Shown: in pieces, positions 1 to 24,747 of the stretch
Layout: each line of letters starts with the position of its first letter
Position numbering within the stretch: the first letter of the stretch is position 1
DNA from: Candidatus Moraniibacteriota bacterium
GTDB taxonomy: Bacteria; Patescibacteriota; Minisyncoccia; Moranbacterales; GCA-2747515
Assembly (NCBI GenBank): GCA_023133275.1
Contig: JAGLWU010000021.1
Span: 1,341-65,340 of the forward strand
Direction of reading: 5' to 3'
DNA length: 64,000 nucleotides
Program-made: the position numbers and the translations under genes
Notes under the pieces: generated by a model
What the model was told of the DNA's origin: nothing
What the model saw: only the letters and a program-made list of their open reading frames with translations
Databases searched by the model: none

Positions 1-1683
1 TGACTATTATCAAATTCACCTCGCCCACGATTCACCGCACTTAATTCAAAAGTCGTTAAAATTCCCGTCGCATCAATTTTATTCTTTTCATAAAAATTCA
101 TTAATTTTGGTTGAATTGCCATCACACCATCACTTTCATATTTTTGAATAGCTGTTCGCATTTCTTTTATATAATTTTCATCCGCCTTTACATCGTTGTT
201 CAAAGTTATGATATATTTTATATTTGGATTTAAAAACGCCATTCTCATTCCAATATTATTAGGATTTGCGAAACCAGTATTTTTTTTCAAACGAATAATT
301 GAAACTTGCGGAAAATTATTTTTTATAAAATTAACTGAGTCATCCGTCGATCCGTTGTCCACTAAAATGATTTGAAAATTTTGATCCGTCTGACTTTGCA
401 ATGACTGAAAACAAGTTTCCAAATATTTCTTACCGTTCCAATTTGCAATCACAACTACCGTATCAATTTCTAAATTTTCTGATTTAACTAAATTAATTTC
501 CTGAATTTCATCAATTGCATTTTTCAAAAAGTTATAATATTCATTTTTATTTTTAGAAGAAGTAGTGTATTTTTGCAAAGCAGTTTCAAAAGCCTGTCTT
601 CCCATTTTTTCACGCAAATTTTTATTTTGAATTAAAGTGATTAATTTTTTATACCATTCATTTAAATCACTTGCAATAAAACCATCCTTTCCATCTTGAA
701 TAGATTCTTGAAATGTTTGTGTACCACTCACCACCACAGGATTTTTCACAATCGCTGACTCAAAAAACTTCAACTCAGATTTTGACTCACAAAACGGATC
801 ACCAACCTCCAACGGTGCAATCGTAACATCACATTTTGCTAATTCATGAAAATATTTTTCTCGCCTAATTAAAGATTTCCGAGTAATTTGATTCTCATAT
901 TTTTCAAATTTCTTACTTATTTCCAAAGCTCCCACGAGATAAAGTTGCACATTTTTATTTTCTTTCAAAATTCGCAAAAGCACATCCGACACCACAGCAA
1001 AATCTCGATCATGCGATTTGGAGCCGCTAAAATATCCAATAGTTATTTTTTCATTATTTTTTTTAACATTCCTTCTCGCAAATTTAGCATCTGATAAATC
1101 TTTTTCGGAAAGTTTATTTGGAATTACAAAAACTTTTTTATTGTATTTTTTTAATCGCTCTGCCAAATAAGTAGTCGTAGTAGTCGCAAATTTAACTGCT
1201 GAATTTTCTAACAAAAAATTATTTTCTTCATATTGTTTTTTTTCTAACTCTGTTAAATTTTTATAAGCGTTTGTTTTTTGAAATATTTGTTTTTCAAAAG
1301 TTAAATCATCAGTTTCAAAAATTATTGTTTTTTTATTTTTTTCTAATTTTGAAATAAATTTTTCTAACTTTTCTGTTTTTGTTGCATGATGAAAAATGAA
1401 GACTTGAAATCGTTTTGCTTGTTTTTGTAAAAGCGGACTGGATTGATGAATTATAGAAACTTTAAATTTTTGGTTTTTTAATTCTTCGGCAATGTGAAAG
1501 ACTCTGTGTAATGTACTTGCTCCAGAGGCGCCAGAGGCTACAAATAAAATTTCGCCTCGTCGCACCACCATCATTTTGGAAATTTGAAAAAGTCCTCGCA
1601 GAAACATGGATAATCCTGAGATCAAGCCTTCGTTTTTTACAATTCCAACAACTTTTCCAAATAGTATTGATATTATTTTCATG
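1..1683 (-). CDS. Bifunctional glycosyltransferase fusion: N-terminal GT4-like (glycosyl transferase group 1) half and C-terminal GT2 half. The 3' end runs off the window edge.
   Basis: ATG at 1681-1683 on the minus strand opens a reading frame that is still open at position 1. It translates as MKIISILFGKVVG...FVASGASGASTLHRVFHIAEELK, then a GT4-like segment (GYFSGSKSHDRDFAVV...). It ends with a GT2 signature, NFQIILVDNGSTDDSVNFIKNNFPQVSIIRLKKNTGFANPNNIGM (DxD and nucleotide-binding region). Confidence 0.7.
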
Positions 1684-1691
1684 ATTTTATT

Positions 1692-2234
1692 TTAATATTC
1701 TATTTTCAAATTTTTATAAAAACCCCAACTAGCCAAAACATGAACATGAATAATTTCACCACTTTTAATCTTTTTATCAATAATATTCTCCTGAACCCAA
1801 TGATTCAACAAATCCTCTTCAGTAGCATCTCGATTCCCTTTCAAATCAGCCACTTCCAAATCTTCCGCCAAAAATACATACATAAAAGATTTTGAACGTC
1901 GATTATTCATCAAATACTTACCAATTTGAGTCAATTTATTGCTCTTATAACCCAATTCCTCCATCAACTCCCTATTAGCACCGTCTTCAATATTTTCACC
2001 ACAAGGAACAAACCCACCAGGAAATTGATAAAGACTTTTTCTTATTGGATAAGAAAATTCTTTTTGCAAATTAATTTTGCCCTCTTCATTTCTACAAATA
2101 ATCGTTACACAATCACCTTTATCTTCAAATAATAAATATTTACTTTTCGTTCCATTAGGTAACTGAATATCATCCTCGATCAAAGTTAATCGAGAATGTT
2201 CAAATATCTTTTTAGAATTTAAAGTTTTCCACAT
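1692..2234 (-). CDS. NUDIX hydrolase
   Basis: Canonical Nudix box GGFVPCGENIEDGANRELMEELGY (GX5EX7REUXEEXGU). Compact 180 aa size. Confidence 0.85.
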   Translation of the reverse strand: MWKTLNSKKIFEHSRLTLIEDDIQLPNGTKSKYLLFEDKGDCVTIICRNEEGKINLQKEFSYPIRKSLYQFPGGFVPCGENIEDGANRELMEELGYKSNKLTQIGKYLMNNRRSKSFMYVFLAEDLEVADLKGNRDATEEDLLNHWVQENIIDKKIKSGEIIHVHVLASWGFYKNLKIEY

Positions 2235-2255
2235 ATTTTTTTAATTAAAAATTCA

Positions 2256-4220
2256 CTACTCAAAAATCTGTCTCCACAAATATCTAACTTGAGCACTCGA
2301 GCTAAATTTTGGATCACGATCTTTCGGTTTAAAAACTTTTCTATCATCCGTAATAAATTCCCCTTTCGGCTTCAATTCATACAAAGTCAAAGTCCCAAAA
2401 ACTTTTTTCTCCACGACATCCATCCCCACAACAAATTTCTCCAAATAATTTTTCGCATTAGATTGCGTACGAATAATAATAAAATAATTCCCCTCACGAT
2501 ATAAAGGCTTCAAATCACCTGAAATATGATCACGTGGAATATCACGCACATCAATCCGCTCCCAAAACGCCCGTTTAAATTCCGCCTGTGCATCCAAAAA
2601 AATCGGGTAATTATTTTCTTCATACTTACTGACCATATACTCAACAATTTCTTCCATCTGTTCCAAAGTCATTCGATTCTTCTCCTTCAAAATATGATCA
2701 GTTTTAATTCTCAAATCTGGATTACTTTTTGCCTGCGACAATTCATTGAAATACAAAAATACAAAAATTAAATTAGAAATTATAAAACCAGCAGTAATTA
2801 ACCAAATAATAATTCGCAAATATTTATTTTTACTTTGCGAAACAACTTTCAAAACCATTCCCCACAAAACTAAAACTAACGGACCGCTGAGCAAAAAAAA
2901 TCTCGGTGCTAAATCATAAGACAACGGAATGTATGCCATAAAATTAATCCCCAGCCATAAAAGAATTATTATTAAAAAGTTTTTTCTCTCATCTTTTTTT
3001 TCTTTCCAATAAAGATAAACCCCTGAAATTAAACCTAACAATAATATCACAAAAGAAATGATTCCTCTAAAAAATCCGTCTTTACAATCTTGATCACATT
3101 TAATATCCTTATCGCTAATTTGAGGCAATTCCGCTCGCTGATCGCCTGTTAAAATTAACCAATTATATTGTGTGTGTTCTCCACCATTTCGCACAAATTT
3201 TTCAAAAAGAGAGTGTTTATTAATTTCTTTTCCAGTTTCTGGATCAAGTATTTTTTTATCAGATTTTTTTAAAACAGCTGAAATAAAAGCCTTGTAATTT
3301 TCACCGTCAGTTTTAATATCGTTAATAATCAAAGGAATATTCAGAAAAATAAAAATCGCAATTGCTCCCAGCCAATATTTCAAAGCAATTTGTGGTCGTG
3401 TCCAAATAAGATAAACAACTGCTACAACTGGTGCAATCGTAAAAGCTAAAAAGTGCATATTACTCAAAAACGCCAAAGAAATACTTACCACCATCAACCA
3501 CCAACCATTTTGTTTTTTAGGATTATTTTGAAAATGATTAGAAACACTTTCAACTTTTTTTTCAATAATGTTTAAACTTTTTGCGACAAACCTTGTAAAT
3601 TTATTTTTGCAACAATCACTTTCTACAATAATTTTAAATTGCCTGAAAAAATTTAAAGTTCTACCTAAACAATTTTTATTCTTACTTGTAGCTTGCAATA
3701 AACTATACACAAAAGCTAGCATGAAAAAAGGCATTAAATTTGGATTCCACCCAAAGCGACTGTAAGTTACGAAAAAAATTGAGACTGAAAAAATTGTCAT
3801 CAATGCTAAAGAAATTTTTTGATTGAAAAATTCTCGCACAAAAATATAAAAAAGTGGAATGGTCAAAAATGAAAAAATTAAAATTAAGACAATGCTGCCC
3901 ACTGGAGTGTCGCCAAAAATTAATGCACTAACATATTCCATGTAATAAAAAAGCGGTCCTAAACGTAATGTTGTTTTGTCATCAGCAATGTCAGATCCTT
4001 TTGATTTAATCATTACATTCCCCGCTGCTTTTGGTCCTTGTAACGGAAGTTCGCCAACACCGTATTTTATCGCAGAATGGATAATTCGAAAATCTCGTGC
4101 TTGATCTAGCTGATAATGCATCCAGTCATTGAATTTGAATGCTCGCAAAAAAAATCCTAAACTTAAAATTACGATAAAAATTATAGCGATTTTATTTTTT
4201 TTGAATGTATTTTTTTTCAT
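2256..4220 (-). CDS. PMT/ArnT-type GT-C membrane glycosyltransferase (GT39/GT83-like), paralog 1
   Basis: Polytopic N-terminal half with the loop-1 acidic motif YQLDQARD. Basic Cys-containing insert (ESDCCKNKFTRF) and a C-terminal soluble domain. Clearly paralogous to 11723..13843 and 14626..16488. Confidence 0.65.
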   Translation of the reverse strand: MKKNTFKKNKIAIIFIVILSLGFFLRAFKFNDWMHYQLDQARDFRIIHSAIKYGVGELPLQGPKAAGNVMIKSKGSDIADDKTTLRLGPLFYYMEYVSALIFGDTPVGSIVLILIFSFLTIPLFYIFVREFFNQKISLALMTIFSVSIFFVTYSRFGWNPNLMPFFMLAFVYSLLQATSKNKNCLGRTLNFFRQFKIIVESDCCKNKFTRFVAKSLNIIEKKVESVSNHFQNNPKKQNGWWLMVVSISLAFLSNMHFLAFTIAPVVAVVYLIWTRPQIALKYWLGAIAIFIFLNIPLIINDIKTDGENYKAFISAVLKKSDKKILDPETGKEINKHSLFEKFVRNGGEHTQYNWLILTGDQRAELPQISDKDIKCDQDCKDGFFRGIISFVILLLGLISGVYLYWKEKKDERKNFLIIILLWLGINFMAYIPLSYDLAPRFFLLSGPLVLVLWGMVLKVVSQSKNKYLRIIIWLITAGFIISNLIFVFLYFNELSQAKSNPDLRIKTDHILKEKNRMTLEQMEEIVEYMVSKYEENNYPIFLDAQAEFKRAFWERIDVRDIPRDHISGDLKPLYREGNYFIIIRTQSNAKNYLEKFVVGMDVVEKKVFGTLTLYELKPKGEFITDDRKVFKPKDRDPKFSSSAQVRYLWRQIFE

Positions 4221-4255: not shown

Positions 4256-5833
4256 TTAGAAAAACTTTTTTATAAACCAATTATCACAGTCAACATCCAC
4301 TCTTGAATTTTCTTGAGTAACTTTAGGACAATCATTATCATTTATAATTTTGATGTCTAATGAATTCTCTATCTCAAAAAAAGGAATACTTACATTTTTA
4401 AAATTAATATTATTTATATCCTTTAATTTTACAAAAATTTTCTCTCCTTCAACCTGAATATTTTTAAATAATACACCATTAACTTTATTTTTAAATCCCT
4501 TAAATCTAATAATCGTCTTTTTCCCATTATTAATAATTTTAATATCACAAAACTCAATATTTCTCATTTCAGGCTCCTTAGTTGTTTCAGAGTCTTCACC
4601 ACCATAACGAAAATTTATTTTTATAGCTTCTTTATCAGAATTTTTAATAAGAATATTTCTAAATACTACATTTTCTATTATACCACTTCTACCAGCTTTA
4701 GTTTTTATTCTTAAACCGTTATTAGATTTTTCAACTATCAAATCTTCAACAAATACATTTCTAACATCACCAGACATTTCACTTCCAATCGTAACTGCTC
4801 CATGACTTTCTTCAACGATATTATTTCTAATCACAATATTTTCGGATGACTTGCCTACTCTCCAACCATCTTTATCCCTTCCAGATTTTATTACAATTGC
4901 ATCATCCCCGCTTCTAATATTGTTATTTTCAATTAATACATTTTTTGATGAATCTATTGCAATCCCATCAGTATTTGGAGCACTCGTTTCTATATTTACA
5001 TTCCGTATAATCAAATTTTCTGTATACAAAGAATGAATTGTCCACATAGGACCATCCTTAACAGTAACATTTTCAATTAATACATTTTTTGAATTATAAG
5101 GCTGTATGAAAGAAGTTCTTATATAATCATCAACTTTACCAAAAATTCTATTTTCTACTGCGACATCTTCCAAAAACATATTGTATAATCTTCTTTTTGC
5201 CTCAGTTTCCTTTTCTTTAAAATCATTCCAACCATTAGGATTATTATTTTTTTGAATAATTCCTTTTCCTGTAATAGCTACATTCACACAATCAGGTATA
5301 TATATCATGAGCGAAAAATTCATTAATTCCATCCCTTCATAACGAGTTTTTACAACTGGAATATAATCGGTTGGCTCTGAAGAAAAAGTAATTATTGACC
5401 CTTCTTCTAAAAATAAGTTAATATTACTTTTAAAGTGAATTGGACCATTAAGCAGCCATTCACCAACTGGAACTTTTACTGTCCCACCCCCTTTATTTGA
5501 ACAATCTTCAATGGCTTTTTTAAAAGATTCTACATTGTGATTTTCAACTTCACTGTTAATTTTTATAGCACCGTAATCAGAAATATTACAAATATTATTT
5601 GGAAATATTGGAGAACTAATATTTTCAACAAAATCAACGAAAGTTAAATCTATTTCAACATATTTACTGCTTAAGTCACTATTTAAATCAATATCTTCTT
5701 TTGTAAACTTATTCTTAGTATTATTTATAAAAATAAAACAAAGTAAGCTAATTAATACAATTATAAAGTAAACTAAATAATTGGAATTTAAAAATTTTTT
5801 AATTTTTTCTTTTAGCATAAAAAATTTAATCAT
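4256..5833 (-). CDS. Membrane-anchored GH28-like (polygalacturonase family) beta-helix glycoside hydrolase, paralog 1
   Basis: N-terminal TM anchor. All four GH28 signature segments are present: NTDGIAIDSS, SGDDAIVIKSG, ESHGAVTIGSEMSGDVRNV and RIKT. Also the CSNKGGGTVKVPVGEW N-cap typical of pectate-lyase-fold enzymes. Confidence 0.75.
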   Translation of the reverse strand: MIKFFMLKEKIKKFLNSNYLVYFIIVLISLLCFIFINNTKNKFTKEDIDLNSDLSSKYVEIDLTFVDFVENISSPIFPNNICNISDYGAIKINSEVENHNVESFKKAIEDCSNKGGGTVKVPVGEWLLNGPIHFKSNINLFLEEGSIITFSSEPTDYIPVVKTRYEGMELMNFSLMIYIPDCVNVAITGKGIIQKNNNPNGWNDFKEKETEAKRRLYNMFLEDVAVENRIFGKVDDYIRTSFIQPYNSKNVLIENVTVKDGPMWTIHSLYTENLIIRNVNIETSAPNTDGIAIDSSKNVLIENNNIRSGDDAIVIKSGRDKDGWRVGKSSENIVIRNNIVEESHGAVTIGSEMSGDVRNVFVEDLIVEKSNNGLRIKTKAGRSGIIENVVFRNILIKNSDKEAIKINFRYGGEDSETTKEPEMRNIEFCDIKIINNGKKTIIRFKGFKNKVNGVLFKNIQVEGEKIFVKLKDINNINFKNVSIPFFEIENSLDIKIINDNDCPKVTQENSRVDVDCDNWFIKKFF

Positions 5834-5845: not shown

Positions 5846-7144
5846 CTACAAAAACACATTAATATCCTTATTTACAAAAATAACATAAGAAATAATTAAA
5901 GAAAGAACACCTCCGTAAACAATTTGATAATTCAACGATTTAGTCTTATGTCTCACAGTAATAAAAGTCAAAATCAAAGGAATAATATAATACCTAAATT
6001 CAAATAACCAATGCAATGAAAGAAATAAAAAGGAAAAAGGAATAATTAAAGAATATTTATTCTTAATAAATGGCTTAGTAAAAAAATATCCAATTGCTAA
6101 AACAAAGAGTGAATATCCAAATATTGAAAAAAATAAATTCTCCTGCAAATAATACAACACCCAATTGTGCATAAATCTAAGTTTCACATTATAAACATGC
6201 GGTTCCAAAACTAAAGTTCTAACAAAAACAAAATACCCAGTGAACATCAAAACTAAAGTAATTATTGATCTTTTTAAATCTCTAAAATAAAAGTTATAAA
6301 TCTTTTTAATATTAGAAATAACGACTGGAAAAAACATAAATGAAAATAATATTAGAAATCCATAAATATTCCCAAAATGAAGACTCATCGATGGATGTCT
6401 GGATTTATCACCTGTCGCTATCCCCTCATTGAAAACATAAAACATAACAAATAAAAACATAACCACAAAATATGATGCACTTTTAGAAATAAAATCCACA
6501 AGAAGACTCTTATTTATTTTTTTATCATTTTCAACAAAAATATCTAATGCCAATAAAGTCATTAACAAGCCTAACCACAATATATTATCCTGACGTACTA
6601 ATAAAGATAATAATAAAAATAAAGCCGACGCATCATAACGCTTATATAAATAAAATACAAAAGCAGAACTAACGAGAACTAATGACCAAACATCCGTATA
6701 AACCAAAAAAAACAACGGTGCTAAAGTTGGCACTGATAAAATAGCTAATATTGTTCGTTGATTTTGCTTAAGTTTTTTATTAGCAAAGAATAAAACAATT
6801 GGCAAAAGTAAAGCTAAAATAACTTGAAAAACTCGAAGCCATTGATCGCTTGGATGTCCTTTTTTTGTTTTATAATCAATAAAAGGATCTGCAATCTTTC
6901 CTATAAAAGCTAGTGTATAATGATAACCTGGTATTGTTGTTAGCTGTTTAACGGGTCTATTAGTTTCTCCTCTGAAAATTCTTTTAACTTGCAAAGTGTG
7001 AGAATTTTCATCTGTAAATCTACCAGGTGCTAATTTGTAAACATACATTGCCCCACCTGTAATTAAAATTAGTGCAATCACTAAAATTATTTTTTCTAAA
7101 TCATCTCTCATTATAAACTTTTTGATTTGCTCTATTTTTTGCAT
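5846..7144 (-). CDS. Polytopic GT-C membrane protein, ALG10/DIE2-like (GT59-like) candidate
   Basis: More than 10 predicted TM segments. The first luminal loop FTDENSHTLQVKRIFRGE...KQLTTIPGYHY matches the ALG10 pattern DEIFHxPQAQ...ITTxPGLY. Confidence 0.45.
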   Translation of the reverse strand: MQKIEQIKKFIMRDDLEKIILVIALILITGGAMYVYKLAPGRFTDENSHTLQVKRIFRGETNRPVKQLTTIPGYHYTLAFIGKIADPFIDYKTKKGHPSDQWLRVFQVILALLLPIVLFFANKKLKQNQRTILAILSVPTLAPLFFLVYTDVWSLVLVSSAFVFYLYKRYDASALFLLLSLLVRQDNILWLGLLMTLLALDIFVENDKKINKSLLVDFISKSASYFVVMFLFVMFYVFNEGIATGDKSRHPSMSLHFGNIYGFLILFSFMFFPVVISNIKKIYNFYFRDLKRSIITLVLMFTGYFVFVRTLVLEPHVYNVKLRFMHNWVLYYLQENLFFSIFGYSLFVLAIGYFFTKPFIKNKYSLIIPFSFLFLSLHWLFEFRYYIIPLILTFITVRHKTKSLNYQIVYGGVLSLIISYVIFVNKDINVFL

Positions 7145-9630: not shown

Positions 9631-10614
9631 TTACTCAAATTCATTCTCAAAATCAATCTCTATTTTACCACCATTTTCCAAATCAGTGTAGAACATCTTA
9701 ACATCCATTTCTCCATCCTCAATAATTAATTCGTAAAAAGATCCTGGATATTCTAAACTTTTTTTAGTTCCTGTAAAAGAATAATATTTAACATCATTTT
9801 TTTCTCTGAAATAATTAAATTCAATATGTCCACTAAATATTGCCTTGACATTATACTTTTCAAGCAACTCTATTAAATGTTCTCCATTCCCCACAACTCT
9901 ATCAATTCCCTCACCTCTCCCCAAAGCAGGCTGATGTGTAAAAACAAAAACCTGTTTATCAGTTTGCAAATACGGTTCTAACCAAGTGAAAATATGATCA
10001 GGGATATGTCCACCAATCGAAGAATGTCCCGGCTCTGAAGTACTTTCATCAGGAAAAAAATTTGTATCCATAATTATAAAACGATAATCACCTTGATCAA
10101 TAATTTGATTTTCACTTTCTAAATTTAACGTTTCTCGAAATTGCGTTTTAGTAACACTTCTCAAATCATGATTTCCCACCACAAGATAAACTGGTGAACC
10201 AACTCTGCTCAATTCTTTCTTTACTAATTGTATTCCCATAATGCTGACAAAATCTTTATCATTAGTTCCCTCAACAATATCGCCTAAATGAAAAATTAAA
10301 TCTGGCTGGAATATTTTCATTTGTTCGTTAAATTCATTCAAAGGTTTTATGTTTTTTTCTGAAAGGTAACGAGGTGCGTCATCTGCTTTATTTTCTCGAA
10401 CGATTCTTTTGGCGTGAACGTGGGTGTCGGTTATTATTCCGATTTTTATGTCTTGTTGGGTTTTGATTTTTCGTTCCCAAATTGGTTTTAGTTTTGGTAA
10501 TGGGAAAAATCCTCGATGTTCGTAGTCGGGCGTGTCGTATTTATTGAAGTACCAAAGACTTGCTCCGCCAACTGGTATTAGGAATATGAATAATGTTAGG
10601 ATTATTTTTTTCAT
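9631..10614 (-). CDS. Secreted or anchored metallophosphoesterase (calcineurin-like)
   Basis: Signal/TM N-terminus. MPE motifs GIITDTHVH, HLGDIVEG, GNHD and GHIEF, in the order D-x-H, GD, GNH, GH. Confidence 0.8.
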   Translation of the reverse strand: MKKIILTLFIFLIPVGGASLWYFNKYDTPDYEHRGFFPLPKLKPIWERKIKTQQDIKIGIITDTHVHAKRIVRENKADDAPRYLSEKNIKPLNEFNEQMKIFQPDLIFHLGDIVEGTNDKDFVSIMGIQLVKKELSRVGSPVYLVVGNHDLRSVTKTQFRETLNLESENQIIDQGDYRFIIMDTNFFPDESTSEPGHSSIGGHIPDHIFTWLEPYLQTDKQVFVFTHQPALGRGEGIDRVVGNGEHLIELLEKYNVKAIFSGHIEFNYFREKNDVKYYSFTGTKKSLEYPGSFYELIIEDGEMDVKMFYTDLENGGKIEIDFENEFE

Positions 10615-10683: not shown

Positions 10684-10720
10684 GTAGGCACTCAGAAATC
10701 TAAGTGCCTACATTATTCTT
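10684..10720 (-). terminator. Rho-independent terminator overlapping the end of ORF 10700..11266
   Basis: On the minus strand: GTAGGCAC-ttagatttctga-GTGCCTAC then TTTTTTTATCC. Confidence 0.5.
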
Positions 10721-11266: not shown

Positions 11267-11639
11267 AAGAAGAATCTACATAACATCCAGCGAAAAGAAG
11301 AGCTATAACGATAATAACCGCAATGACATAACGGATGTTTTCAAACATAAATACAATAGCCCTGAAAAAAAATTTAATGATTTTTCCAATGCCAACAAAT
11401 ATGGAAATTATCACATTTATCGTACCGATTATTATAGGCCAAATTTGAACAATAGCCCAAATAATTCCAATAAGCAAGGCAAATAATAATGCTTCTGGTA
11501 AAAAAATACCAAGTGAACATACTATAAACAACCCTATCAGAACAATATAAATCATTCCGCTATTATTGTCTACAAAGTCTTTATTTTTTGCCAATGCTTT
11601 ATTCATAGGCGGACCAAGTTGCAATTTATTGTTTTTCAA
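11220..11639 (-). CDS. Hypothetical small polytopic membrane protein
   Basis: ORF with 3-4 hydrophobic helices. No recognisable motif. Confidence 0.3.
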   Translation of the reverse strand: MKNNKLQLGPPMNKALAKNKDFVDNNSGMIYIVLIGLFIVCSLGIFLPEALLFALLIGIIWAIVQIWPIIIGTINVIISIFVGIGKIIKFFFRAIVFMFENIRYVIAVIIVIALLFAGCYVDSSYESGNQKISVWDSFN

Positions 11640-14619: not shown

Positions 14620-14625
14620 AAAAAT

Positions 14626-18581: not shown

Positions 18582-20825
18582 ATGCAAACAATTCTATTAA
18601 AAGTTAAACCACTTTGGCTAAACATTTCTCTAACATTATCAATCACAATAATTTTAATCCACAAAATCGATTTATTAAATAATTTAAGATTTTTAAACTC
18701 ATTGAAAATATTTTATCTATTATTTTTAATTTCACTTTTTGGAATAATATTTTTAAAATTGTTGAAAGTTATAAATAATAAATCACTAATTTTACACACG
18801 CTTCCCACTCAAATTATTTTATTCATCGGAATTCATTCAACTGAAAATTTACATTATATTTTTAATTTACTCGTTGGCATATGGCTAATCTTCGGCGGAA
18901 TTTTAATTGTAAAAAAAATTACAAAACAAAATAATCACCAAAAATCATACTCAAAAAGTTTCACCAAACAAAGTGTATTTTTTTTAATTTTAATAATTTC
19001 TTGCCAACTATTTTTTGCACTTTATCAAGTTGACAAAGCACTTTACATCGATGAAAAACTCTGGACTTACAGCAAAGAAAAACGAATTGAAAAATATTGG
19101 AATAACATTTTTGAACAAGATTGGAAAAATACCCGACCCAGCGACAAACCTGGAGTAACTTTAGCCATCATTTCTGGAATTGGATTATTTTGGGAAACAC
19201 CTTCAGATTTTTTAAATATTGAAGAAAATAATTATTCAAAAGACGAATTTTTAAAAATGCTTTTCAGAATGAGATTGCCAGTAATTCTTTTTGCCTCACT
19301 AAATTTAATCATTTTTTATTTTCTGTTTTCAAAATTATTTAATAATAAAACTGGATTACTTACCACTACACTGATTGGACTTTCCCCGCTGTTGATTGGA
19401 ATAAGTCGAGTGATAAATCCAGACGCTTTCAGTTGGATTTTAATGTCGCTCACAATAATCACTTATTTCATTTATCAAAAAAACAACAAACCAAAATATC
19501 TCTATGCAACAGGAATTTTACTCGGATTATCTTTACTCACAAAATATATTGCCAATTTGTTAATTCCATTTTTTCTAGCAGAAATTTTCATTCAAACAAT
19601 TTTATTTAACGTAAACGAAAAAGATTTACCAAAAATTTTAAAGAAAAAATTTCTCAATTTTATTGAAATTATTATTTTAGCGTTAATCACTTTTTACATT
19701 CTTTACCCTGGAACGTGGGTCGCCCTAGACAGATTGTTAAAAGGAACATTGTGGAGTCAAGCTTTCGAACCATTTTGGAAACCGTTTATTACTTTCATAT
19801 TTTTATTTACAGTCGATTTATTCTGGCTCAACTCAAAATTTTTCTCTTCAATTATTCTAAAGCTCCAAAAATTTAAAAAAGTTTTATTTTTTTCTGTGCC
19901 AACAATTTTTACTTTTTCAATATTATTCACTCTATTAAATGTTTACACTCAAATGAGTTTTATCAATTTTGAATATTTTATAGCATCACCAAAAAGTGCA
20001 GGTGGCGAAAGTTTAATTTCCGTTTTTTTCTCAGGATTTTATAGTTTAATTTTCGGCATCACACCTTTAGTTTTCTTCGGACTTTTGCTAACTTTATTTT
20101 TTGTTTTAAGAAAAATTAAGAAAAATAAAAACACTCTAAAAATTAATTTCCAAAATTATTTCATCTGGCAAATATTGTTCTTCATTTTTATTTTTTATCT
20201 ATCTTCTGCATTCAGTGAAGTAGTTCCCATGGTTCGTTACCAAATTATAATTTATCCACTCACAATAATTTTAGCAACTTTAGGCTACACACAATTATTT
20301 GAAATGGAAAAACTAAAAAACTTTTCTAAAAAAATATTTCCAATCTTTTTACTTTTTGTTATTTTTACAAACTGTTTTATTTTATGGAATTTAAAACCTA
20401 ACTTTTTTAGTTACAATAGTTTTCTACTCCCGAAAAAATATATTATTAATCCAAAAGATATTGGCGATGGAAATTATGAAGTCGCTCAATTTTTAAATAA
20501 ATTGCCAAATGCAAAAAATTTAAAAATCTGGTCTGACAAAAATGGTATTTGTAATTTATTTATTGGAAAATGTTATTCTGTTGAACATCCTGAGGATTTT
20601 GAATTTCACGGTCCCGATTATGATTATTTTGTTATTTCTCGTGGGCGAAAAAGTAAGATTGTGAGATTGACTAATCAAAGACTTGACGGTAATCCTGATT
20701 ATGAATTGCGATTGGATAGACTTTATTTTACCGACAAAATTTTAAAAGAGTTTAACCCAGGTAATCGTAAGGTTAATTTTATTCGTGTAATTGAGAGTGA
20801 TGATGTGAAAGTTTGGGAAAAGTAA
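18582..20825 (+). CDS. Large polytopic GT-C-like membrane glycosyltransferase candidate with C-terminal soluble domain
   Basis: 747 aa with more than 12 TM. Acidic loop ALYIDEKLWTYSKEKRIE after the first TM cluster (a DE-type motif). C-terminal roughly 150 aa hydrophilic. Confidence 0.45.
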   Translation: MQTILLKVKPLWLNISLTLSITIILIHKIDLLNNLRFLNSLKIFYLLFLISLFGIIFLKLLKVINNKSLILHTLPTQIILFIGIHSTENLHYIFNLLVGIWLIFGGILIVKKITKQNNHQKSYSKSFTKQSVFFLILIISCQLFFALYQVDKALYIDEKLWTYSKEKRIEKYWNNIFEQDWKNTRPSDKPGVTLAIISGIGLFWETPSDFLNIEENNYSKDEFLKMLFRMRLPVILFASLNLIIFYFLFSKLFNNKTGLLTTTLIGLSPLLIGISRVINPDAFSWILMSLTIITYFIYQKNNKPKYLYATGILLGLSLLTKYIANLLIPFFLAEIFIQTILFNVNEKDLPKILKKKFLNFIEIIILALITFYILYPGTWVALDRLLKGTLWSQAFEPFWKPFITFIFLFTVDLFWLNSKFFSSIILKLQKFKKVLFFSVPTIFTFSILFTLLNVYTQMSFINFEYFIASPKSAGGESLISVFFSGFYSLIFGITPLVFFGLLLTLFFVLRKIKKNKNTLKINFQNYFIWQILFFIFIFYLSSAFSEVVPMVRYQIIIYPLTIILATLGYTQLFEMEKLKNFSKKIFPIFLLFVIFTNCFILWNLKPNFFSYNSFLLPKKYIINPKDIGDGNYEVAQFLNKLPNAKNLKIWSDKNGICNLFIGKCYSVEHPEDFEFHGPDYDYFVISRGRKSKIVRLTNQRLDGNPDYELRLDRLYFTDKILKEFNPGNRKVNFIRVIESDDVKVWEK

Positions 20826-20902: not shown

Positions 20903-22483
20903 ATGGAAAAACCTAATTTCAAAAAAATGAGCAAATCAAAAATCACTAAAGTAATCGCAATAAGTTTCACTATAATTTTAGCAACTTCAATCATTTGGAA
21001 AATCCTAAATAAAAAAACCACCGAAACAAATATTGATTTATCTTTTGTCCAAAAAGTAGAAAATATCACGCCCCCAACTTTTCCAGATAATGTTTGTAAT
21101 GTTGTTGATTATGAAGCAGTTCCAAATCTTACAAAAACATTAGAAACGGCACAATATTTGTCATCAAAAGAACAATTTGAAAAAATGATAAAAGGAGCTA
21201 AAGAAGGAGAAAAGCAAAATTTTCAAGCATTTCAAAAAGCCGTAGAAGACTGCTCAAATAAAGGTGGCGGGACAGTAAAGATTCCGGCTGGTGAATGGAA
21301 AGTCGGCGGACCAATTCATTTGAAAAGCAATATTAATTTACATTTAGAAGAAAACGCCGTAATTTCATTTTCAAGCAATCCCGATGACTTTTTACCAGTT
21401 GTGAAAACTCGATATGCAGGTTTAGAGCTGTACAACTATTCCCCGATGATTTACGCACTAGATTGTGAAAATATTGCCATCACCGGAAAAGGAACGATCC
21501 GCGGAATTACTGAACCAAATAATTGGAAACCTTTTATAAAAAATAAAAAGAAGGCTGAAAAACGACTTTACAAAATGGCAAATAATAATATTCCGCTTGA
21601 AGAAAGGATTTTTGGAACTGTGGAAGATTCACTGCGACCATCAATGATTCAACCTTACAATTGCAATAATATTTTGATCGAAGGAATAAAAATTGAAGAA
21701 GGTCCGATGTGGACACTCCATGTACTTTACACAAATAATTTAATTATTCGTGATTTAAATATTGAAACAAGAAGCACAAACAACGACGGAATTGTTATAG
21801 ATTCCTCAACAAATGTTTTGATTGAAAATAATAATTTAGCGACTGGCGATGATGCGATTGCCATAAAATCTGGAAAAGATAGAGACGGCTGGCGAGTTGG
21901 AAAACCGTCAGAAAATATTGTAATCAGAAATAATAAAGTTACCGAAGCTCATGCTGGTGTAGCGATTGGTAGCGAGATGTCTGGTGATGTACGAAATGTT
22001 TTGATTGAAAATTTGAATGTTGAACAGGCTGATCGTGGCATTAGAATTAAAAGTCGAGTTGGGCGTGGTGGCACTGTAGAAAATATTCTTGTTCAAAATA
22101 GTATTATTAAAAATTCCGGAAGAAAAGAACCCCTTCAAATTAATTTTGATTACGGATCAAAATCTACCCAACCAAAAACTAAGAAAAAACCTGAAATTCG
22201 AAATGTCGAATTTAGAAATATTGAAATTGATAGTGATGCAGAAAATGCTATTGAAATTGTTGGACTTAAAAATCAAATGTCTTCTATTTTATTTAAAGAT
22301 ATTGAAATTAAAAATACTAATCAATTTGTAAGAGTTGATAATGCTGAATTTATTAAATTTGAAAATATTACTGGCGTTTTTTTCAAAATGAAGAATTCTG
22401 CCAATCTTGAAATTGTGAATGATGCTTGTCCAAAAGTTGAACAGGGAAAATCTGAAAATATTATTATTGACTGTAAAAAATAA
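20903..22483 (+). CDS. Membrane-anchored GH28-like beta-helix glycoside hydrolase, paralog 2
   Basis: Colinear with 4256..5833 (CSNKGGGTVKIPAGEW; NNDGIVIDSS; TGDDAIAIKSG; AHAGVAIGSEMSGDVRNV; RIKS). N-terminal TM. Confidence 0.75.
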   Translation: MEKPNFKKMSKSKITKVIAISFTIILATSIIWKILNKKTTETNIDLSFVQKVENITPPTFPDNVCNVVDYEAVPNLTKTLETAQYLSSKEQFEKMIKGAKEGEKQNFQAFQKAVEDCSNKGGGTVKIPAGEWKVGGPIHLKSNINLHLEENAVISFSSNPDDFLPVVKTRYAGLELYNYSPMIYALDCENIAITGKGTIRGITEPNNWKPFIKNKKKAEKRLYKMANNNIPLEERIFGTVEDSLRPSMIQPYNCNNILIEGIKIEEGPMWTLHVLYTNNLIIRDLNIETRSTNNDGIVIDSSTNVLIENNNLATGDDAIAIKSGKDRDGWRVGKPSENIVIRNNKVTEAHAGVAIGSEMSGDVRNVLIENLNVEQADRGIRIKSRVGRGGTVENILVQNSIIKNSGRKEPLQINFDYGSKSTQPKTKKKPEIRNVEFRNIEIDSDAENAIEIVGLKNQMSSILFKDIEIKNTNQFVRVDNAEFIKFENITGVFFKMKNSANLEIVNDACPKVEQGKSENIIIDCKK

Positions 22484-22637: not shown

Positions 22638-24443
22638 TTATTCAACTTTGTAAATCAAAAAAGAAGTTCCAACTTGAGCAATCGGTTTATACTTTAAAGT
22701 CCAACGATAAGAATTATCATCTGACAGTTCCGAATTATAAATAGAGCCTTGAAGATGATTCACAGAAATAGCATAGTAACCTTTTTCAATCGGACGTTTA
22801 GAATCCCACCACTCAATAAATCTATCCTCGCCTAATCTATTACTTGGTCGATCACCACCAAAATAATGCACATGAATTTTATCAATTTCAGGATGTTCAT
22901 TTAAATATTTTTCAAGTCGTTTCAAGTCTTGCCCCCAATCAGCATTCGAATCAGTCATAATTTTATAACCATTTTTCGGACCGCCAACTGTTTGATTAAA
23001 ATAAGAAATATAATAAGGATAAGCCCAAATCACCTCAGTAATCATTAGCGAAATCATAGCAATAAAAACATAACGAATAGCAATAATTCCCTTTCCATTG
23101 ATTAACTTACTATAAATATTTACACAAACTCTGGCGGTAATTAAATAAATTAAAGGCATTATCGGAAATAAATGACGAAAACCAATATTTAAATTTCCCG
23201 TGATTGAAATGTAAAGATAAAAAATAATAAATAAAATAAGAGAAATTTCGGTAAAATTATGTAAGATATATTTTCGTCCGCCACTCAATGATTTTGTAAT
23301 TTTTTGCGAAAAAAGTTTTAAAATATCTTGATAAATTAAAATCAAGAAAGTGCTAATGGCAAAAACATAAAAGAAAAGATGAAATAATGTCTGTTTTGTT
23401 ATAAAAGCAACAGGAAAATAAGTAGGAAAAGATTGGTTAGCAACTTGTCCCATAAAATATGCACCATTGCCTCCAGCTACTCTATTTTTTACATACATAA
23501 CGCCGTACACATAAGTTCCCAACGATCGAGTAAGTGAATTTTTGTTTGTTAAAATTATAAAATTAAATGCTTGTTGATCAATAATTCCATCATCAGGATT
23601 TATTTTTGCGGGTGTGAGAGTGGAGAGAACTTCCGTCGGCATATTGTAAGTAAATGGAATATAAGTAAGCCAAATTACAAAAAATATAGTAAATCCTATC
23701 AAAATACTTTTCTTAAAATAATTCAAAATAAAACGAAATTTGTGATTTTCTATTTCAAATAATTTAAAAATTATAAAAGTAATCAGTAATAATACAAAAA
23801 ATATAACAAGAAGTATTGCTGAAAATTTTGTAATTTGGGCGATTCCTAGAGTGAGTCCAGTCAAGAAAGCATTTTTCCAGCTAGGATGCCGAACGAAAGA
23901 TAAAAAGAAATAAAAAGCAAAAACCATTGCAGCTGCAATTCCGATGTCAGTGGTAACTAAATGATTATGTCCTAAAATATTTGGATCGAAAACACAAAGC
24001 AAAAGTGCAAAAATCCCTGTGGCTGTTCCGCCAATTTTTTTACCCCATTGAAAAAGTAGAAGAGCAAGTCCGATTGAAATTAAAATAATTGGCAAACGAG
24101 CGAAAAAAGTAATTTGATCGACATTATTTCCTACTTCGTGAAGGAGGTGATGTCCGGCTTGCCATTGTTTGTATTCTCCCCACTGATTAGTTTCGTTCCA
24201 TAAATTTTGGCTAGTTTCAAAGTTTAAATTTAAAAATAATAATGGAATTCCTGAAAGAACTTTGACTAATGGTGGATGTTCAGGATTTAATCGGTAGTCG
24301 AATTCTGAAACGTAACTGTATCCAGCGGGAATGTGAGCGACTTCATCAAAAGTTAGTGAATCGTCGTTGGCTAATTTTACTGAAACGATTGTTAAAAAAA
24401 GTATTGCGAGAGTGATAATTATTTTATAATGCTTAGTGAACAT
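22638..24443 (-). CDS. GT39-type (protein O-mannosyltransferase-like) GT-C membrane glycosyltransferase
   Basis: Loop-1 motif TFDEVAHIPAGYSY matches the PMT FDEVH signature. Polytopic, with a C-terminal soluble domain. Start moved to the internal ATG (MFTKHYKIII...). The longer extension would overlap the neighbouring gene and its terminator. Confidence 0.7.
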   Translation of the reverse strand: MFTKHYKIIITLAILFLTIVSVKLANDDSLTFDEVAHIPAGYSYVSEFDYRLNPEHPPLVKVLSGIPLLFLNLNFETSQNLWNETNQWGEYKQWQAGHHLLHEVGNNVDQITFFARLPIILISIGLALLLFQWGKKIGGTATGIFALLLCVFDPNILGHNHLVTTDIGIAAAMVFAFYFFLSFVRHPSWKNAFLTGLTLGIAQITKFSAILLVIFFVLLLITFIIFKLFEIENHKFRFILNYFKKSILIGFTIFFVIWLTYIPFTYNMPTEVLSTLTPAKINPDDGIIDQQAFNFIILTNKNSLTRSLGTYVYGVMYVKNRVAGGNGAYFMGQVANQSFPTYFPVAFITKQTLFHLFFYVFAISTFLILIYQDILKLFSQKITKSLSGGRKYILHNFTEISLILFIIFYLYISITGNLNIGFRHLFPIMPLIYLITARVCVNIYSKLINGKGIIAIRYVFIAMISLMITEVIWAYPYYISYFNQTVGGPKNGYKIMTDSNADWGQDLKRLEKYLNEHPEIDKIHVHYFGGDRPSNRLGEDRFIEWWDSKRPIEKGYYAISVNHLQGSIYNSELSDDNSYRWTLKYKPIAQVGTSFLIYKVE

Positions 24444-24507
24444 ATTTTTGTTATTTTTTATTTTGTTAGTTTTAATTTGTAATTTAATTATAACATTGTT
24501 TTTTGTA

Positions 24508-24552
24508 AAAATAAAAATCCGTGCCAGCGATGGTTCCGCCAGCACAGATTTT
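24508..24552 (-). terminator. Rho-independent terminator of the zinc-ribbon gene
   Basis: On the minus-strand RNA the stem is CUGUGCUGGCGG-AACCAU-CGCUGGCACGG (with G-U pairs), followed by AUUUUUAUUUUU. Confidence 0.5.
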
Positions 24553-24747
24553 TTACCATATTTCTTCATTCCCATCTTCTGCGTTTACGCTACGTTTACG
24601 TTCATAACATACAGGACATATTTTTGTTTGAGGGATTTCTCCTCCCAAAAATATTCCCTCACATTTAGGACAAGTATAACTCGTAGCAGGTAACTCCTGA
24701 AAATACCCCCACCAAGTTACAGTCTCGCCTTTTTTATTTTTATACAA
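24553..24747 (-). CDS. Small zinc-ribbon protein
   Basis: CPKC...x17...CPVC. TTG start preceded by AGGAGA 8 nt upstream. Own terminator downstream. Confidence 0.5.
   Translation of the reverse strand: MYKNKKGETVTWWGYFQELPATSYTCPKCEGIFLGGEIPQTKICPVCYERKRSVNAEDGNEEIW

What the first reader, a model, noticed from the sequence alone, without database searches (positions are those of the whole stretch)
1..24575. Dense surface-glycosylation island with eukaryote-like PMT/ALG10-type GT-C enzymes and paired GH28 hydrolases
Within 24.5 kb there are a GT4+GT2 fusion glycosyltransferase, NUDIX/HD/metallophosphoesterase hydrolases and five PMT/ArnT-type GT-C proteins. Three of these are clear paralogs with the (E/Q)(L/I)DQARD loop. 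One has a yeast-PMT-like FDEVAH motif. There is also an ALG10/DIE2-like GT-C protein, two paralogous membrane-anchored GH28-like beta-helix enzymes on opposite strands, a DKNYY-repeat protein and a NosD-like beta-helix protein. Lipid-linked-sugar-dependent GT-C enzymes combined with beta-helix glycanases suggests assembly and trimming of a glycosylated surface layer or glycoprotein. The paralog expansion within one locus is notable for a reduced genome. The UDP-sugar dehydrogenase at 49752 and GT2/GT4 genes at 56-64 kb probably feed the same pathway.
Basis: partly seen in the sequence, partly recalled or inferred. Interest (0 to 1): 0.6.

Follow-up and report, generated by a model that had tools for sequence, protein, structure and literature searches.

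The report
Glycan-building enzymes paired with a hydrolase
In this tiny-genome bacterium (Moranbacteria) and its relatives, a pectin-cutting-type enzyme (GH28) is always encoded beside, and sometimes fused to, membrane glycosyltransferases that build sugars onto the cell surface, which suggests it edits the cell's own envelope glycan rather than digesting plant pectin.

Summary
Window 1-24575 encodes seven GT-C-type membrane glycosyltransferases: three DQARD paralogs, the types I call C18, C22 and C72, and one ALG10-family protein. It also encodes two GH28 hydrolases with intact catalytic motifs, NUDIX, HD, a metallophosphoesterase, DKNYY, a beta-helix protein and a partial GT4+GT2 fusion.

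"Eukaryote-like" is mostly a naming artefact, because PMT_2 proteins are common in bacteria. The ALG10-family hit is real, with a full-length Pfam match of 101.8 bits.

The main result comes from comparison with other genomes.
- The source is a Candidatus Moranbacteria MAG.
- In 24 of 25 related Patescibacteria GH28 loci, the GH28 gene lies within 359 bp of a GT-C gene and inside an array of 1-7 GT-C genes.
- None of about 55 non-Patescibacteria GH28 loci has a GT-C gene. Their neighbours are pectin-catabolism genes.
- Seven diverged protein clusters are natural GT-C::GH28 fusions, and they are polyphyletic within the GH28 tree.
- Relatives add an ArnC-like GT2, a flippase-like protein, a TuaD-like UDP-glucose dehydrogenase and a GT4 in conserved order.

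The most likely function is assembly, outside the membrane, of an envelope glycan that may contain uronic acid, with a dedicated trimming hydrolase. The donor sugar and the acceptor are inferred, not shown.

NUDIX, HD, DKNYY and the beta-helix protein are not conserved parts of the system. The dehydrogenase at 49752 is not the ortholog of the one linked to the cluster in relatives.

The parts
18582..20825 (+). C18-type GT-C glycosyltransferase (747 aa), the usual partner of GH28. The DE motif is at residues 157-158, just after core TM1. It has a C-terminal soluble domain. The 125-aa N-terminal extension is of low confidence.
20903..22483 (+). GH28b, a membrane-anchored GH28 hydrolase resembling exo-alpha-galacturonidases. 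It starts 77 bp after C18 on the same strand.
   Evidence: Pfam Glyco_hydro_28 115.6 bits. One N-terminal TM at residues 17-35. Catalytic D295, D316, D317 and K383 are conserved in 33 of 33 Patescibacteria and fusion sequences.
4256..5833 (-). GH28a, a lineage-specific duplicate of GH28b (52% identical). It lies between the ALG10-like gene (12-bp gap) and DQARD paralog 1 (35-bp gap).
   Evidence: Pfam 111.6 bits. PDB 3JUR, the T. maritima exo-poly-alpha-D-galacturonosidase, E 2.3e-85. NCBIfam alpha-D-galacturonidase BT4155 302 bits, below the 800-bit cut-off. Sister to GH28b in the NJ tree.
5846..7144 (-). ALG10/DIE2-family GT-C (432 aa) with a DExxHxxQ motif at residues 45-52 and a TTIPGYH motif at 69-75.
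   Evidence: Pfam DIE2_ALG10 101.8 bits, full length. AlphaFold2 pLDDT 92.8. The nearest solved folds are all GT-C enzymes: AftB, ArnT, STT3, Pmt4, ALG3 and ALG12. All 50 homologs carry PF04922 only. Conserved columns are listed.
2256..4220 (-). DQxRD-type GT-C, paralog 1 (QLDQARD at residue 39).
   Evidence: PMT_2 31.4 bits. Family alignment A4: D39 and D43 invariant, R42 nearly invariant. hhalign against C18: probability 95%, E 2e-8.
11723..13843 (-). DQxRD-type GT-C, paralog 2 (ELDQARD at residue 36).
   Evidence: No Pfam hit of its own. 32-35% identical to paralogs 1 and 3. 36 of 42 family members hit PMT_2.
14626..16488 (-). DQxRD-type GT-C, paralog 3 (EIDQARD at residue 33).
   Evidence: PMT_2 30.3 bits. 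BLASTP to its paralogs.
7279..8913 (-). C72-type probable GT-C (544 aa, about 10 TM, ADEFLD motif at residues 40-45).
   Evidence: No Pfam or NCBIfam hit. hhalign against C18: probability 77-78%, E about 2e-5. Orthologs sit in GT-C arrays next to GH28 in L014, L016, L025, L038 and L041.
22638..24575 (-). C22-type GT-C with an FDEVAH motif. It converges on GH28b.
   Evidence: PMT_2 39.2 bits and PMT 29.1 bits. No ortholog in the related loci.
9631..10614 (-). Membrane-anchored metallophosphoesterase, a recurrent accessory gene.
   Evidence: Metallophos 58.5 bits. One N-terminal TM. Orthologs lie inside the GT-C/GH28 arrays of 6 of 25 related loci.
1..1682 (-). Cytoplasmic GT4+GT2 fusion glycosyltransferase. 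It is partial here and 758 aa on the contig. It possibly makes a lipid-linked precursor.
   Evidence: Pfam; full length seen. Related proteins occur in only 1 of 25 related loci, so the link is weak.

Best explanation
The island is this genome's copy of a glycan-assembly system that works outside the membrane and is conserved across Moranbacteria.

Proposed mechanism:
1. Several GT-C enzymes take sugars from polyprenyl-phosphate carriers. They are the C18, DQxRD and C72 types, plus here a C22 type and an ALG10-family member. They add the sugars to an envelope glycopolymer on the outer face of the membrane.
2. A GH28 hydrolase is tethered to the membrane. It has an intact catalytic centre and resembles exo-alpha-galacturonidases. 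It works with a C18-type GT-C on the same glycan, trimming, editing or releasing it. Hydrolases inside exopolysaccharide operons play this role in other bacteria.
3. In relatives the donor is supplied by a conserved block: TuaD-like UDP-glucose dehydrogenase, ArnC-like GT2, flippase-like protein and GT4. This points to a glycan containing uronic acid.

Shown here: the domain identities, the GT-C folds, conservation of the GH28 catalytic residues, conserved gene neighbourhood, and repeated gene fusion.

Inferred: outward orientation (from crude hydropathy and the architecture of the fusions), the donor sugar, the acceptor, and the role of the hydrolase.
For: Domain and fold evidence:
- Pfam assignments are above the curated cut-offs.
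- An acidic motif follows the first core TM helix in all seven GT-C proteins.

Genomic context:
- All 24 GH28 genes in Patescibacteria-type loci lie 0-359 bp from a GT-C gene, within arrays of 1-7 GT-C genes.
- About 55 non-Patescibacteria GH28 loci contain no GT-C. Their 86 flanking ORFs are sulfatases, GDSL esterases, altronate dehydratase, rhamnogalacturonan lyase, GH88, GH43 and pectinesterase.
- C18-type genes are 37% of the GT-Cs in these loci, yet they are the nearest GT-C for 17 of 24 GH28 genes. The binomial p is 7e-4, without correction for shared ancestry.

Fusions:
- Seven clusters at 50% identity are full-length GT-C::GH28 fusions of 1036-1208 aa, 37-43% identical to the query. 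All pass the Pfam cut-offs for both domains.
- No TM helix separates the two domains.
- The fusions never form one clade in the GH28 tree (0 of 200 bootstraps).

GH28 enzyme:
- D295, D316, D317 and K383 are conserved in 33 of 33 sequences, H350 in 29 of 33 and R381 in 28 of 33.
- The best solved relative is the exo-poly-alpha-D-galacturonosidase 3JUR, E 2.3e-85.

Donor supply in relatives:
- The GT2 matches ArnC at E 4e-46 over its full length and has two C-terminal TM helices.
- The dehydrogenase scores 538 bits against TuaD, and the flippase-like protein matches TIGR00374.
- The order GT2, dehydrogenase, GT4, flippase-like is conserved in 7 distinct loci.

Precedent: bactoprenyl-phosphate-GalA synthase RgtE with GalA transferases RgtD and RgtF (PMC7663294).
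Against: - No ArnC-like GT2, flippase-like gene or Wzx-like gene lies anywhere on the 77.9-kb contig of this genome. The donor-supply half is therefore unseen here.
- The window's dehydrogenase (49752) is a different subfamily from the one linked to the cluster in relatives.
- The epimerases near related loci are GalE-type, not UDP-GlcA 4-epimerase-type. Nothing shows that UDP-GalA is made.
- Support for a single Patescibacteria GH28 clade is moderate (135 of 200 bootstraps).
- GH28-adjacent C18 genes do not form their own subclade.
- Because GH28 sits inside dense GT-C arrays, immediate adjacency alone is weaker evidence than it looks.
- Related loci are not phylogenetically independent.
- There are no expression or biochemical data.
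Confidence: 0.62

Rival explanations
1. The GH28 enzymes are ordinary catabolic exo-polygalacturonases that scavenge environmental pectin. Their position next to GT-C genes has no functional meaning.
For: They are 40-48% identical to pectinolytic GH28s of Bacteroidota, Bacillus and Halanaerobiales. The full-length match to exo-polygalacturonase 3JUR has E 2.3e-85. The literature lists GH28 in Patescibacteria as a polysaccharide-degrading function (PMC9868632).
Against: 24 of 24 Patescibacteria GH28 genes are embedded in GT-C arrays, against 0 of about 55 elsewhere. No pectin-catabolism neighbours of the kind seen in non-Patescibacteria loci are present. Seven independent GT-C::GH28 fusion clusters exist. 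The Patescibacteria GH28 sequences form their own clade.
Confidence: 0.1
2. The GT-C enzymes are protein O-glycosyltransferases (PMT-like) that modify secreted proteins such as pilins, S-layer proteins or sortase substrates. GH28 trims those protein-linked glycans or is unrelated.
Confidence: 0.15
3. The GT-C/GH28 pair acts on the surface of a host cell. GH28 cuts a host capsule or exopolysaccharide, and the GT-C modifies it during episymbiotic attachment.
For: Patescibacteria are commonly episymbionts (background cited in PMC13386854). Both catalytic domains are predicted to face outward.
Against: GT-C enzymes need a lipid-linked donor in their own membrane and normally act on acceptors at that membrane. 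The linked ArnC-like GT2, flippase-like protein, dehydrogenase, GT4 and Wzx-like genes form a self-contained biosynthetic set.
Confidence: 0.08
4. The island is a chance collection of unrelated envelope genes with no shared pathway.
For: Half of the genes in 1-24575 (NUDIX, HD, DKNYY, beta-helix, Abi_alpha and the small TM ORFs) are not conserved in related loci.
Against: The GT-C plus GH28 core recurs across loci whose GC content ranges from 31% to 57% and whose GH28 identity is only 40-48%. The two genes are also found fused.
Confidence: 0.03

Closest known systems
Polyprenyl-phosphate-sugar systems with GT-C transferases: ArnC/ArnT (L-Ara4N on lipid A) and RgtE with RgtD/RgtF (GalA on rhizobial lipid A and LPS core)
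   Same: Relatives pair an ArnC-like GT2 (E 4e-46 to ArnC, two C-terminal TM helices), a flippase-like protein and GT-C enzymes, with a UDP-glucose dehydrogenase next to the GT2. RgtE makes bactoprenyl-phosphate-GalA, which GalA transferases then use (PMC7663294). The Arn pathway also starts from a UDP-glucose dehydrogenase (my own knowledge).
   Different: There is no lipid A or LPS in this lineage. No NCBIfam ArnT or Rgt model is matched. The systems here have up to seven GT-Cs per locus and an obligatory GH28 partner, which Arn and Rgt lack. The ArnC-like gene is not on this contig.
GT-C arrays that build arabinogalactan and lipoarabinomannan in Corynebacteriales (EmbA/B/C, AftA-D)
   Same: Many paralogous GT-C enzymes are encoded together and extend a wall polysaccharide outside the membrane from polyprenyl-phosphate sugars. 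AftA, AftB, AftD and Emb appear among the structural neighbours.
   Different: There is no sequence-level relationship (profile searches against PDB sequences found nothing). The motifs differ (DQxRD, DE). No co-encoded glycoside hydrolase partner or fusion is known to me for those systems.
Hydrolases or lyases encoded inside exopolysaccharide synthesis operons (BcsZ with cellulose synthase, PslG, PelA, AlgL), from my own knowledge
   Same: A glycanase specific for the polymer being made is encoded with, and works beside, the synthesis machinery outside the cytoplasm.
   Different: Those systems use GT-A/GT-2 synthases or Wzy polymerases rather than GT-C enzymes. None uses GH28. Covalent fusion of transferase and hydrolase, as in P0171, P0179 and P0292-P0296, is not a feature of them as far as I know.
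Exo-poly-alpha-D-galacturonosidase of Thermotoga maritima (PDB 3JUR) and the alpha-D-galacturonidase BT4155 family
   Same: Full-length homology (E 2.3e-85; 302 bits). The NTD, GDD, HG and RIK catalytic and carboxylate-binding motifs are conserved.
   Different: The score is below the NCBIfam equivalog cut-off (302 against 800). The protein has an N-terminal membrane anchor or a GT-C fusion instead of being a soluble catabolic enzyme. Its genomic context is biosynthetic rather than pectinolytic.
Eukaryotic ALG10/DIE2 (GT59), the Dol-P-Glc:Glc2Man9GlcNAc2-PP-Dol alpha-1,2-glucosyltransferase
   Same: Full-length match to Pfam PF04922 at 101.8 bits. The N-terminal DExxHxxQ and TT.PG motifs are conserved. 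The fold is GT-C.
   Different: It occurs in bacteria that lack the ER N-glycan pathway. It is shorter (432 aa). Its neighbours are other GT-Cs and GH28. The eukaryotic acceptor does not exist here, so the reaction cannot be the same.

Membership tests
GH28 (CAZy glycoside hydrolase family 28) | Match to the family profile above the curated threshold | tested here: met
   Pfam PF00295: 111.6 and 115.6 bits against a cut-off of 22.9.
GH28 (CAZy glycoside hydrolase family 28) | Catalytic Asp triad (NTD, DD) plus the HG and RIK motifs | tested here: met
   GH28a has NTD, GDD, HG and RIK. GH28b has NND, GDD, HAG and RIK. D295, D316, D317 and K383 are conserved in 33 of 33 related sequences.
GH28 (CAZy glycoside hydrolase family 28) | Hydrolysis of alpha-galacturonide linkages | not testable with these tools
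   Only homology is available: 3JUR at E 2.3e-85. The BT4155 equivalog cut-off is not reached, 302 against 800 bits.
GT-C superfamily (lipid-phosphate-sugar-dependent membrane glycosyltransferases) | GT-C fold: a multi-TM core with a long first outward-facing loop | tested here: met
GT-C superfamily (lipid-phosphate-sugar-dependent membrane glycosyltransferases) | Conserved acidic residue(s) at the start of the first outward-facing loop | tested here: met
   The DQxRD, DE, DExxH and FDEVAH motifs lie 6-12 residues after the first core TM helix. They are invariant in the family alignments. Orientation rests on crude hydropathy and Lys-rich N-termini.
GT-C superfamily (lipid-phosphate-sugar-dependent membrane glycosyltransferases) | A co-encoded polyprenyl-phosphate sugar synthase (GT2 of the ArnC/GtrB/DPM1 type) | tested here: not met
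   None is present on the 77.9-kb contig. One is present in 11 of 25 related loci. The rest of this genome could not be searched.
GT39 / protein O-mannosyltransferase (PMT) | PMT profile plus the C-terminal PMT_4TMC or luminal MIR domains | tested here: not met
   Only 22638-24575 passes PF02366 (29.1 against 22.7 bits). No MIR or PMT_4TMC hit was reported for any protein.
GT83 / ArnT | Match to curated ArnT models | tested here: not met
   No NCBIfam ArnT model was hit by any of the seven proteins at E up to 0.01. Public records name relatives 'ArnT family' only generically.
GT59 / ALG10-DIE2 | Full-length match to the family profile above threshold | tested here: met
   PF04922: 101.8 bits against a cut-off of 27, E 6.5e-29, profile positions 4-389 of 391. 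All 50 homologs carry PF04922 only.
GT59 / ALG10-DIE2 | Role in the Dol-PP-oligosaccharide pathway (adding the third glucose after ALG6 and ALG8) | tested here: not met
   No ALG6/ALG8-type or OST gene lies in the window or the related loci. The neighbours are PMT_2 GT-Cs and GH28, or, in proteobacteria-like contigs, rpoA and dsbB.
GT59 / ALG10-DIE2 | Closer to eukaryotic ALG10 than to any other GT-C family (reciprocal test or phylogeny) | not tested
   The AFDB library was unavailable. No ALG10 structure is among the solved structures matched.

The most novel reading that the evidence does not exclude
C18-type GT-C and GH28 form a single transferase-hydrolase machine, a two-protein unit here and one polypeptide in seven other lineages. 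This machine polymerises and measures an alpha-linked polyuronide on the envelope of Moranbacteria, that is, a bacterial wall polymer resembling homogalacturonan or pectin. Under this reading, GH28 genes counted as 'pectin degradation potential' in Patescibacteria metagenomics are really biosynthetic. Separately, the ALG10-family gene would represent a bacterial lineage of an ER-lumen glycosyltransferase family that the literature treats as specific to eukaryotes (PMC4973528; 10.1101/2024.10.30.621208).
Probability: 0.2. Interest if true: 0.8.

Novelty: new variant of a known kind. Interest (0 to 1): 0.62.

Why it matters
- Patescibacteria make up a large share of bacterial diversity, and the chemistry of their envelopes is almost unknown. 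A conserved gene module that can be tested experimentally gives a concrete entry point: multi-GT-C arrays plus a dedicated GH28, sometimes fused.
- The result changes how CAZyme surveys should be read. GH28 in these genomes should not be scored as pectin catabolism.
- GT-C::GH28 fusions are candidates for structural study of how synthesis and trimming are coupled outside the membrane.
- Bacterial ALG10-family proteins bear on the origin of the eukaryotic ER-lumen glycosyltransferases. Two papers describe these as lacking prokaryotic homologues.

Tried and rejected
1. A genome-contig scan with the single GH28b protein found nothing. It was repeated with alignment A1.
2. Sequence and profile searches of C18, the DQ family and the ALG10-like family against PDB sequences found nothing. 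Only fold comparison worked.
3. The afdb50 fold library was unavailable, so I could not test whether eukaryotic ALG10 models are the closest folds.
4. I tested whether GH28-adjacent C18 GT-Cs form a dedicated subclade. They do not in an NJ tree.
5. I took the window's dehydrogenase at 49752 for the cluster-linked enzyme after a loose phmmer census (8 of 25). I rejected this after NCBIfam and bit-score comparison.
6. I tested whether the GT2 at 56168, or the GT2 beyond the window end, is ArnC/GtrB-like. Neither is: there are no C-terminal TM helices and only weak similarity.
7. I looked for a UDP-GlcA 4-epimerase near the loci. Only GalE-type enzymes were found.
8. hhalign of the ALG10-like family against the C18 family was not significant.
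9. Literature searches for any description of GT-C/GH28 linkage, bacterial PF04922 or Patescibacteria GT-C expansion found nothing relevant.
10. The look-up of P0056 failed because the gene is not on record.

Full report
**Source and setting.** The window has about 30% G+C and almost all genes are on the minus strand. Exact-sequence matches place it on contig DAOVMA010000001.1 (77,884 bp) of assembly GCA_030630955.1, a 'Candidatus Moranbacteria bacterium' MAG. The rest of the window fits a Patescibacteria cell with a Gram-positive-type envelope. It encodes a sortase with TSP3 repeats, fused SecDF, rubrerythrin, desulfoferrodoxin, a TrwB-like ATPase and ribosomal protein L25. An LCP ligase, MreB and further glycosyltransferases lie just beyond position 64000.

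**Check of the observation.**
- Four membrane proteins pass the Pfam PMT_2 cut-off: 2256-4220, 14626-16488, 18582-20825 and 22638-24575. The last also passes PMT.
- 11723-13843 has no Pfam hit of its own. It is 32-35% identical to the other two DQARD proteins. In an alignment of 42 family members, 36 hit PMT_2.
- 7279-8913 is only a probable GT-C: hhalign probability 77-78%, E about 2e-5, against the C18 family. It has an invariant ADEFLD motif after TM1.
- 5846-7144 matches DIE2_ALG10 over the full profile at 101.8 bits.
- Both GH28 proteins score above 110 bits and are 52% identical to each other.
- In all seven GT-C candidates the conserved acidic motif lies 6-12 residues after the first core transmembrane helix. 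This is the position of GT-C catalytic residues.
- The fold does not say which GT-C subfamily these proteins belong to or what their acceptor is.

**What 'eukaryote-like' means here.** PMT_2-type proteins like these are abundant in Moranbacteria, where public records name them ArnT family or GT39. The label comes from the name of the profile. The ALG10-family hit is more notable. Two papers state that the ER-lumen glycosyltransferases, including ALG10, appear unique to eukaryotes or date from the origin of eukaryotes (PMC4973528; 10.1101/2024.10.30.621208). I found no paper discussing bacterial PF04922 members. Even so, 50 prokaryote-type homologs carry only PF04922. Some are named Rhodanobacteraceae or Dokdonella. 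Two sit between rpoA and dsbB on large contigs. The family is therefore established in bacteria and is not peculiar to this island. I could not run the reciprocal test against eukaryotic ALG10 because the AFDB library was unavailable.

**The main finding: GH28 is tied to GT-C genes.** I scanned one genome per species with a GH28 alignment and obtained 80 loci. I then searched their ORFs with the window's seven GT-C proteins.
- In every Patescibacteria-type locus the GH28 gene lies 0-359 bp from a GT-C gene and within an array of 1-7 GT-C genes. This covers 24 GH28 genes. The loci range from 31% to 57% G+C, and their GH28 is 40-48% identical to the window's.
- The one exception (L027) has its GH28 at the contig edge.
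- About 55 non-Patescibacteria loci (Bacteroidota, Bacillus, Verrucomicrobiota and others) contain no GT-C gene.
- A Pfam scan of the 86 ORFs flanking GH28 in those loci returned sulfatases, GDSL esterases, altronate dehydratase, rhamnogalacturonan lyase, GH88, GH43, pectinesterase and sugar-binding proteins. PMT and PMT_2 are not among the 25 commonest families.
- C18-type GT-Cs are 37% of the GT-Cs in the Patescibacteria loci, yet they are the nearest GT-C for 17 of 24 GH28 genes (binomial p 7e-4, ignoring shared ancestry).
- Several of these MAGs are labelled 'uncultured Bdellovibrionales' or 'Micavibrio'. One of them (L009) is 83-88% identical in nucleotide sequence to a Moraniibacteriota locus over 17 kb. 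I treat those labels as errors.

**Fusions.** In L007 a single 1084-aa ORF carries PMT_2 at the N-terminus and GH28 at the C-terminus.
- An exhaustive phmmer search of 1.84 billion representative proteins found seven full-length fusion clusters at 50% identity: P0171, P0179 and P0292-P0296. They are 1036-1208 aa long and the six besides the query are 37-43% identical to it.
- All seven pass the Pfam cut-offs for both domains.
- GH28 directly follows the soluble C-terminal domain of the GT-C, with no intervening membrane helix. In the fusions it thereby replaces the signal-anchor helix that the unfused GH28 proteins carry. This places both catalytic domains on the same side, predicted to be the outer side.
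- In a neighbour-joining tree of 91 GH28 sequences, the Patescibacteria and fusion sequences form one clade (135 of 200 bootstraps). The fusions never form a single clade (0 of 200) and are scattered among unfused lineages. That implies repeated fusion or fission.
- The window's two GH28 genes are sisters. GH28a is therefore a recent duplicate, now placed between the ALG10-like gene and DQARD paralog 1.

**The enzyme itself.** The best solved relative is the exo-poly-alpha-D-galacturonosidase of Thermotoga maritima (3JUR, E 2.3e-85). The best NCBIfam model is alpha-D-galacturonidase BT4155, at 302 bits and well below the 800-bit equivalog cut-off. The three catalytic aspartates and the lysine of the RIK motif are conserved in 33 of 33 Patescibacteria and fusion sequences, the histidine in 29 and the arginine in 28. 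These are predicted to be active glycosidases, not degenerate binding modules.

**What else is conserved.** Gene-order maps of the related loci show three recurring elements.
- Tandem arrays of up to six DQxRD-type GT-Cs are present in 18 of 25 loci. D39 and D43 are invariant in this family and R42 nearly so.
- A Wzx-like Polysacc_synt flippase is present in 9 of 25 loci.
- A block in fixed order, GT2, dehydrogenase, GT4, flippase-like protein, occurs in 7 distinct loci and often abuts GH28.

The GT2 of that block is full-length homologous to ArnC (E 4e-46), GtrB and dolichol-phosphate-mannose synthase, and has two C-terminal membrane helices. The dehydrogenase is TuaD-like UDP-glucose 6-dehydrogenase (538 bits), and the flippase-like protein matches TIGR00374. 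This is the layout of a polyprenyl-phosphate-sugar system feeding GT-C enzymes. The dehydrogenase next to the GT2 suggests a uronic-acid donor. A precedent is bactoprenyl-phosphate-GalA synthase RgtE with GalA transferases RgtD and RgtF (PMC7663294). By contrast, NUDIX, HD, DKNYY and Abi_alpha occur in 0 of 25 related loci, the NosD-like protein in 1, and the metallophosphoesterase in 6.

**Limits for this genome.**
- The donor-supply block is not on the 77.9-kb contig. I could not search the rest of the MAG.
- The dehydrogenase at 49752 scores 299 bits against UDP-ManNAc dehydrogenase and 169 bits against TuaD. It scores only 112-156 bits against the full-length cluster-linked dehydrogenases, which score 390-980 among themselves. 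It is not the ortholog.
- The GT2 at 56168 is not ArnC-like.
- The epimerases near related loci are GalE-type, so UDP-GalA synthesis is not shown.
- The uronide nature of the product rests on GH28 homology plus the TuaD-like enzyme in relatives. I rate that part at roughly even odds.

**Interpretation.** The best-supported reading is that the island encodes the part of an envelope-glycan assembly system that works outside the membrane. Multiple GT-C transferases extend or decorate a wall-associated polymer. A membrane-tethered GH28 works with a C18-type GT-C on the same polymer to trim, edit or release it.
- The catabolic reading of GH28, which is the usual one in metagenomic surveys (PMC9868632), is hard to reconcile with the neighbourhood contrast and the fusions.
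- Protein O-glycosylation remains possible for some of the GT-Cs.
- Action on a host surface is conceivable but fits the self-contained biosynthetic gene set poorly.

**Novelty.** The individual families are known, and so is the principle of a hydrolase encoded with a polysaccharide synthesis system. I did not find three things described in the searchable literature: the pairing and repeated fusion of a GT-C transferase with GH28, its restriction to a Patescibacteria lineage, and the consequence that GH28 there is probably biosynthetic. I therefore class the finding as a new variant of a known kind, of moderate to high interest.

Noticed in passing
window 13888-14619 (-): An Abi_alpha (abortive-infection) gene, Pfam 119.5 bits, sits between DQARD paralogs 2 and 3. 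It is absent from all 25 related loci, so it looks like a defence gene inserted into the glycosyltransferase array.
   Followed up: partly
window 49752-51050 (+): This nucleotide-sugar dehydrogenase resembles UDP-ManNAc dehydrogenase (299 bits) and TviB (237 bits) more than UDP-glucose dehydrogenase (169-186 bits). It probably makes an N-acetyl-hexosaminuronic acid. It is not the ortholog of the TuaD-like enzyme next to GH28/GT-C in relatives.
   Followed up: yes
L007, L009-L012, L017, L020, L024, L025, L043, L082 (genome contigs records): MAGs titled 'uncultured Bdellovibrionales' or 'Micavibrio' carry Moranbacteria-type GT-C/GH28 loci. L009 is 83-88% identical in nucleotide sequence to a Moraniibacteriota MAG (L008) over about 17 kb. 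The submitted taxonomy therefore appears to be wrong.
   Followed up: partly
P0326, P0335, P0376 (relatives of window 18582-20825): Some C18-type GT-Cs of 916-953 aa carry a C-terminal extension of about 320 aa with no Pfam match. This may be another, unknown, outward-facing partner domain fused in place of GH28.
   Followed up: no
L090 6001-7146 and L091 6001-7215: ALG10-family genes on large, proteobacteria-like contigs occupy a conserved position between the rpoA/rplQ end of the ribosomal-protein operon and dsbB, with no GT-C cluster nearby.
   Followed up: partly
window 18582-18956 (+): The C18 ORF has a 125-residue N-terminal extension with three extra predicted helices and pLDDT of only 40-60. 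Most homologs start near residue 125, and there is no ATG, GTG or TTG near that point. It is either a lineage-specific extension or an unusual start.
   Followed up: partly
L038 9800-10297 and 10581-11453: The GH28 gene of this Moranbacteria locus is split into two ORFs. This is either a pseudogene or a sequencing frameshift.
   Followed up: no
window 45880-49546 (-): A TrwB/VirD4-like coupling ATPase with a treble-clef zinc finger is followed by two ORFs with no family match (143 and 423 aa, the latter with one TM). This may be a remnant of a DNA-transfer or uptake apparatus.
   Followed up: no
window 51214-52515 (-): A 433-aa protein has a signal anchor, a long acidic coiled coil and a C-terminal region that looks like a lytic transglycosylase (GVAQFIPTTW). 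It has no Pfam hit at E 0.001.
   Followed up: no
L089 1-9750 (contig beyond window position 64000): The contig continues with two more DKNYY proteins flanking MreB, an S41 protease, an MFS transporter, a 279-aa GT2, an LCP (LytR-CpsA-Psr) ligase and a 456-aa GT4. These are further wall-polymer genes outside the window.
   Followed up: partly
window 10700-11639 (-): Two small, overlapping, very hydrophobic and Lys-rich ORFs have no family match and no counterpart in related loci. The public annotation calls them as 163 and 139 aa.
   Followed up: no
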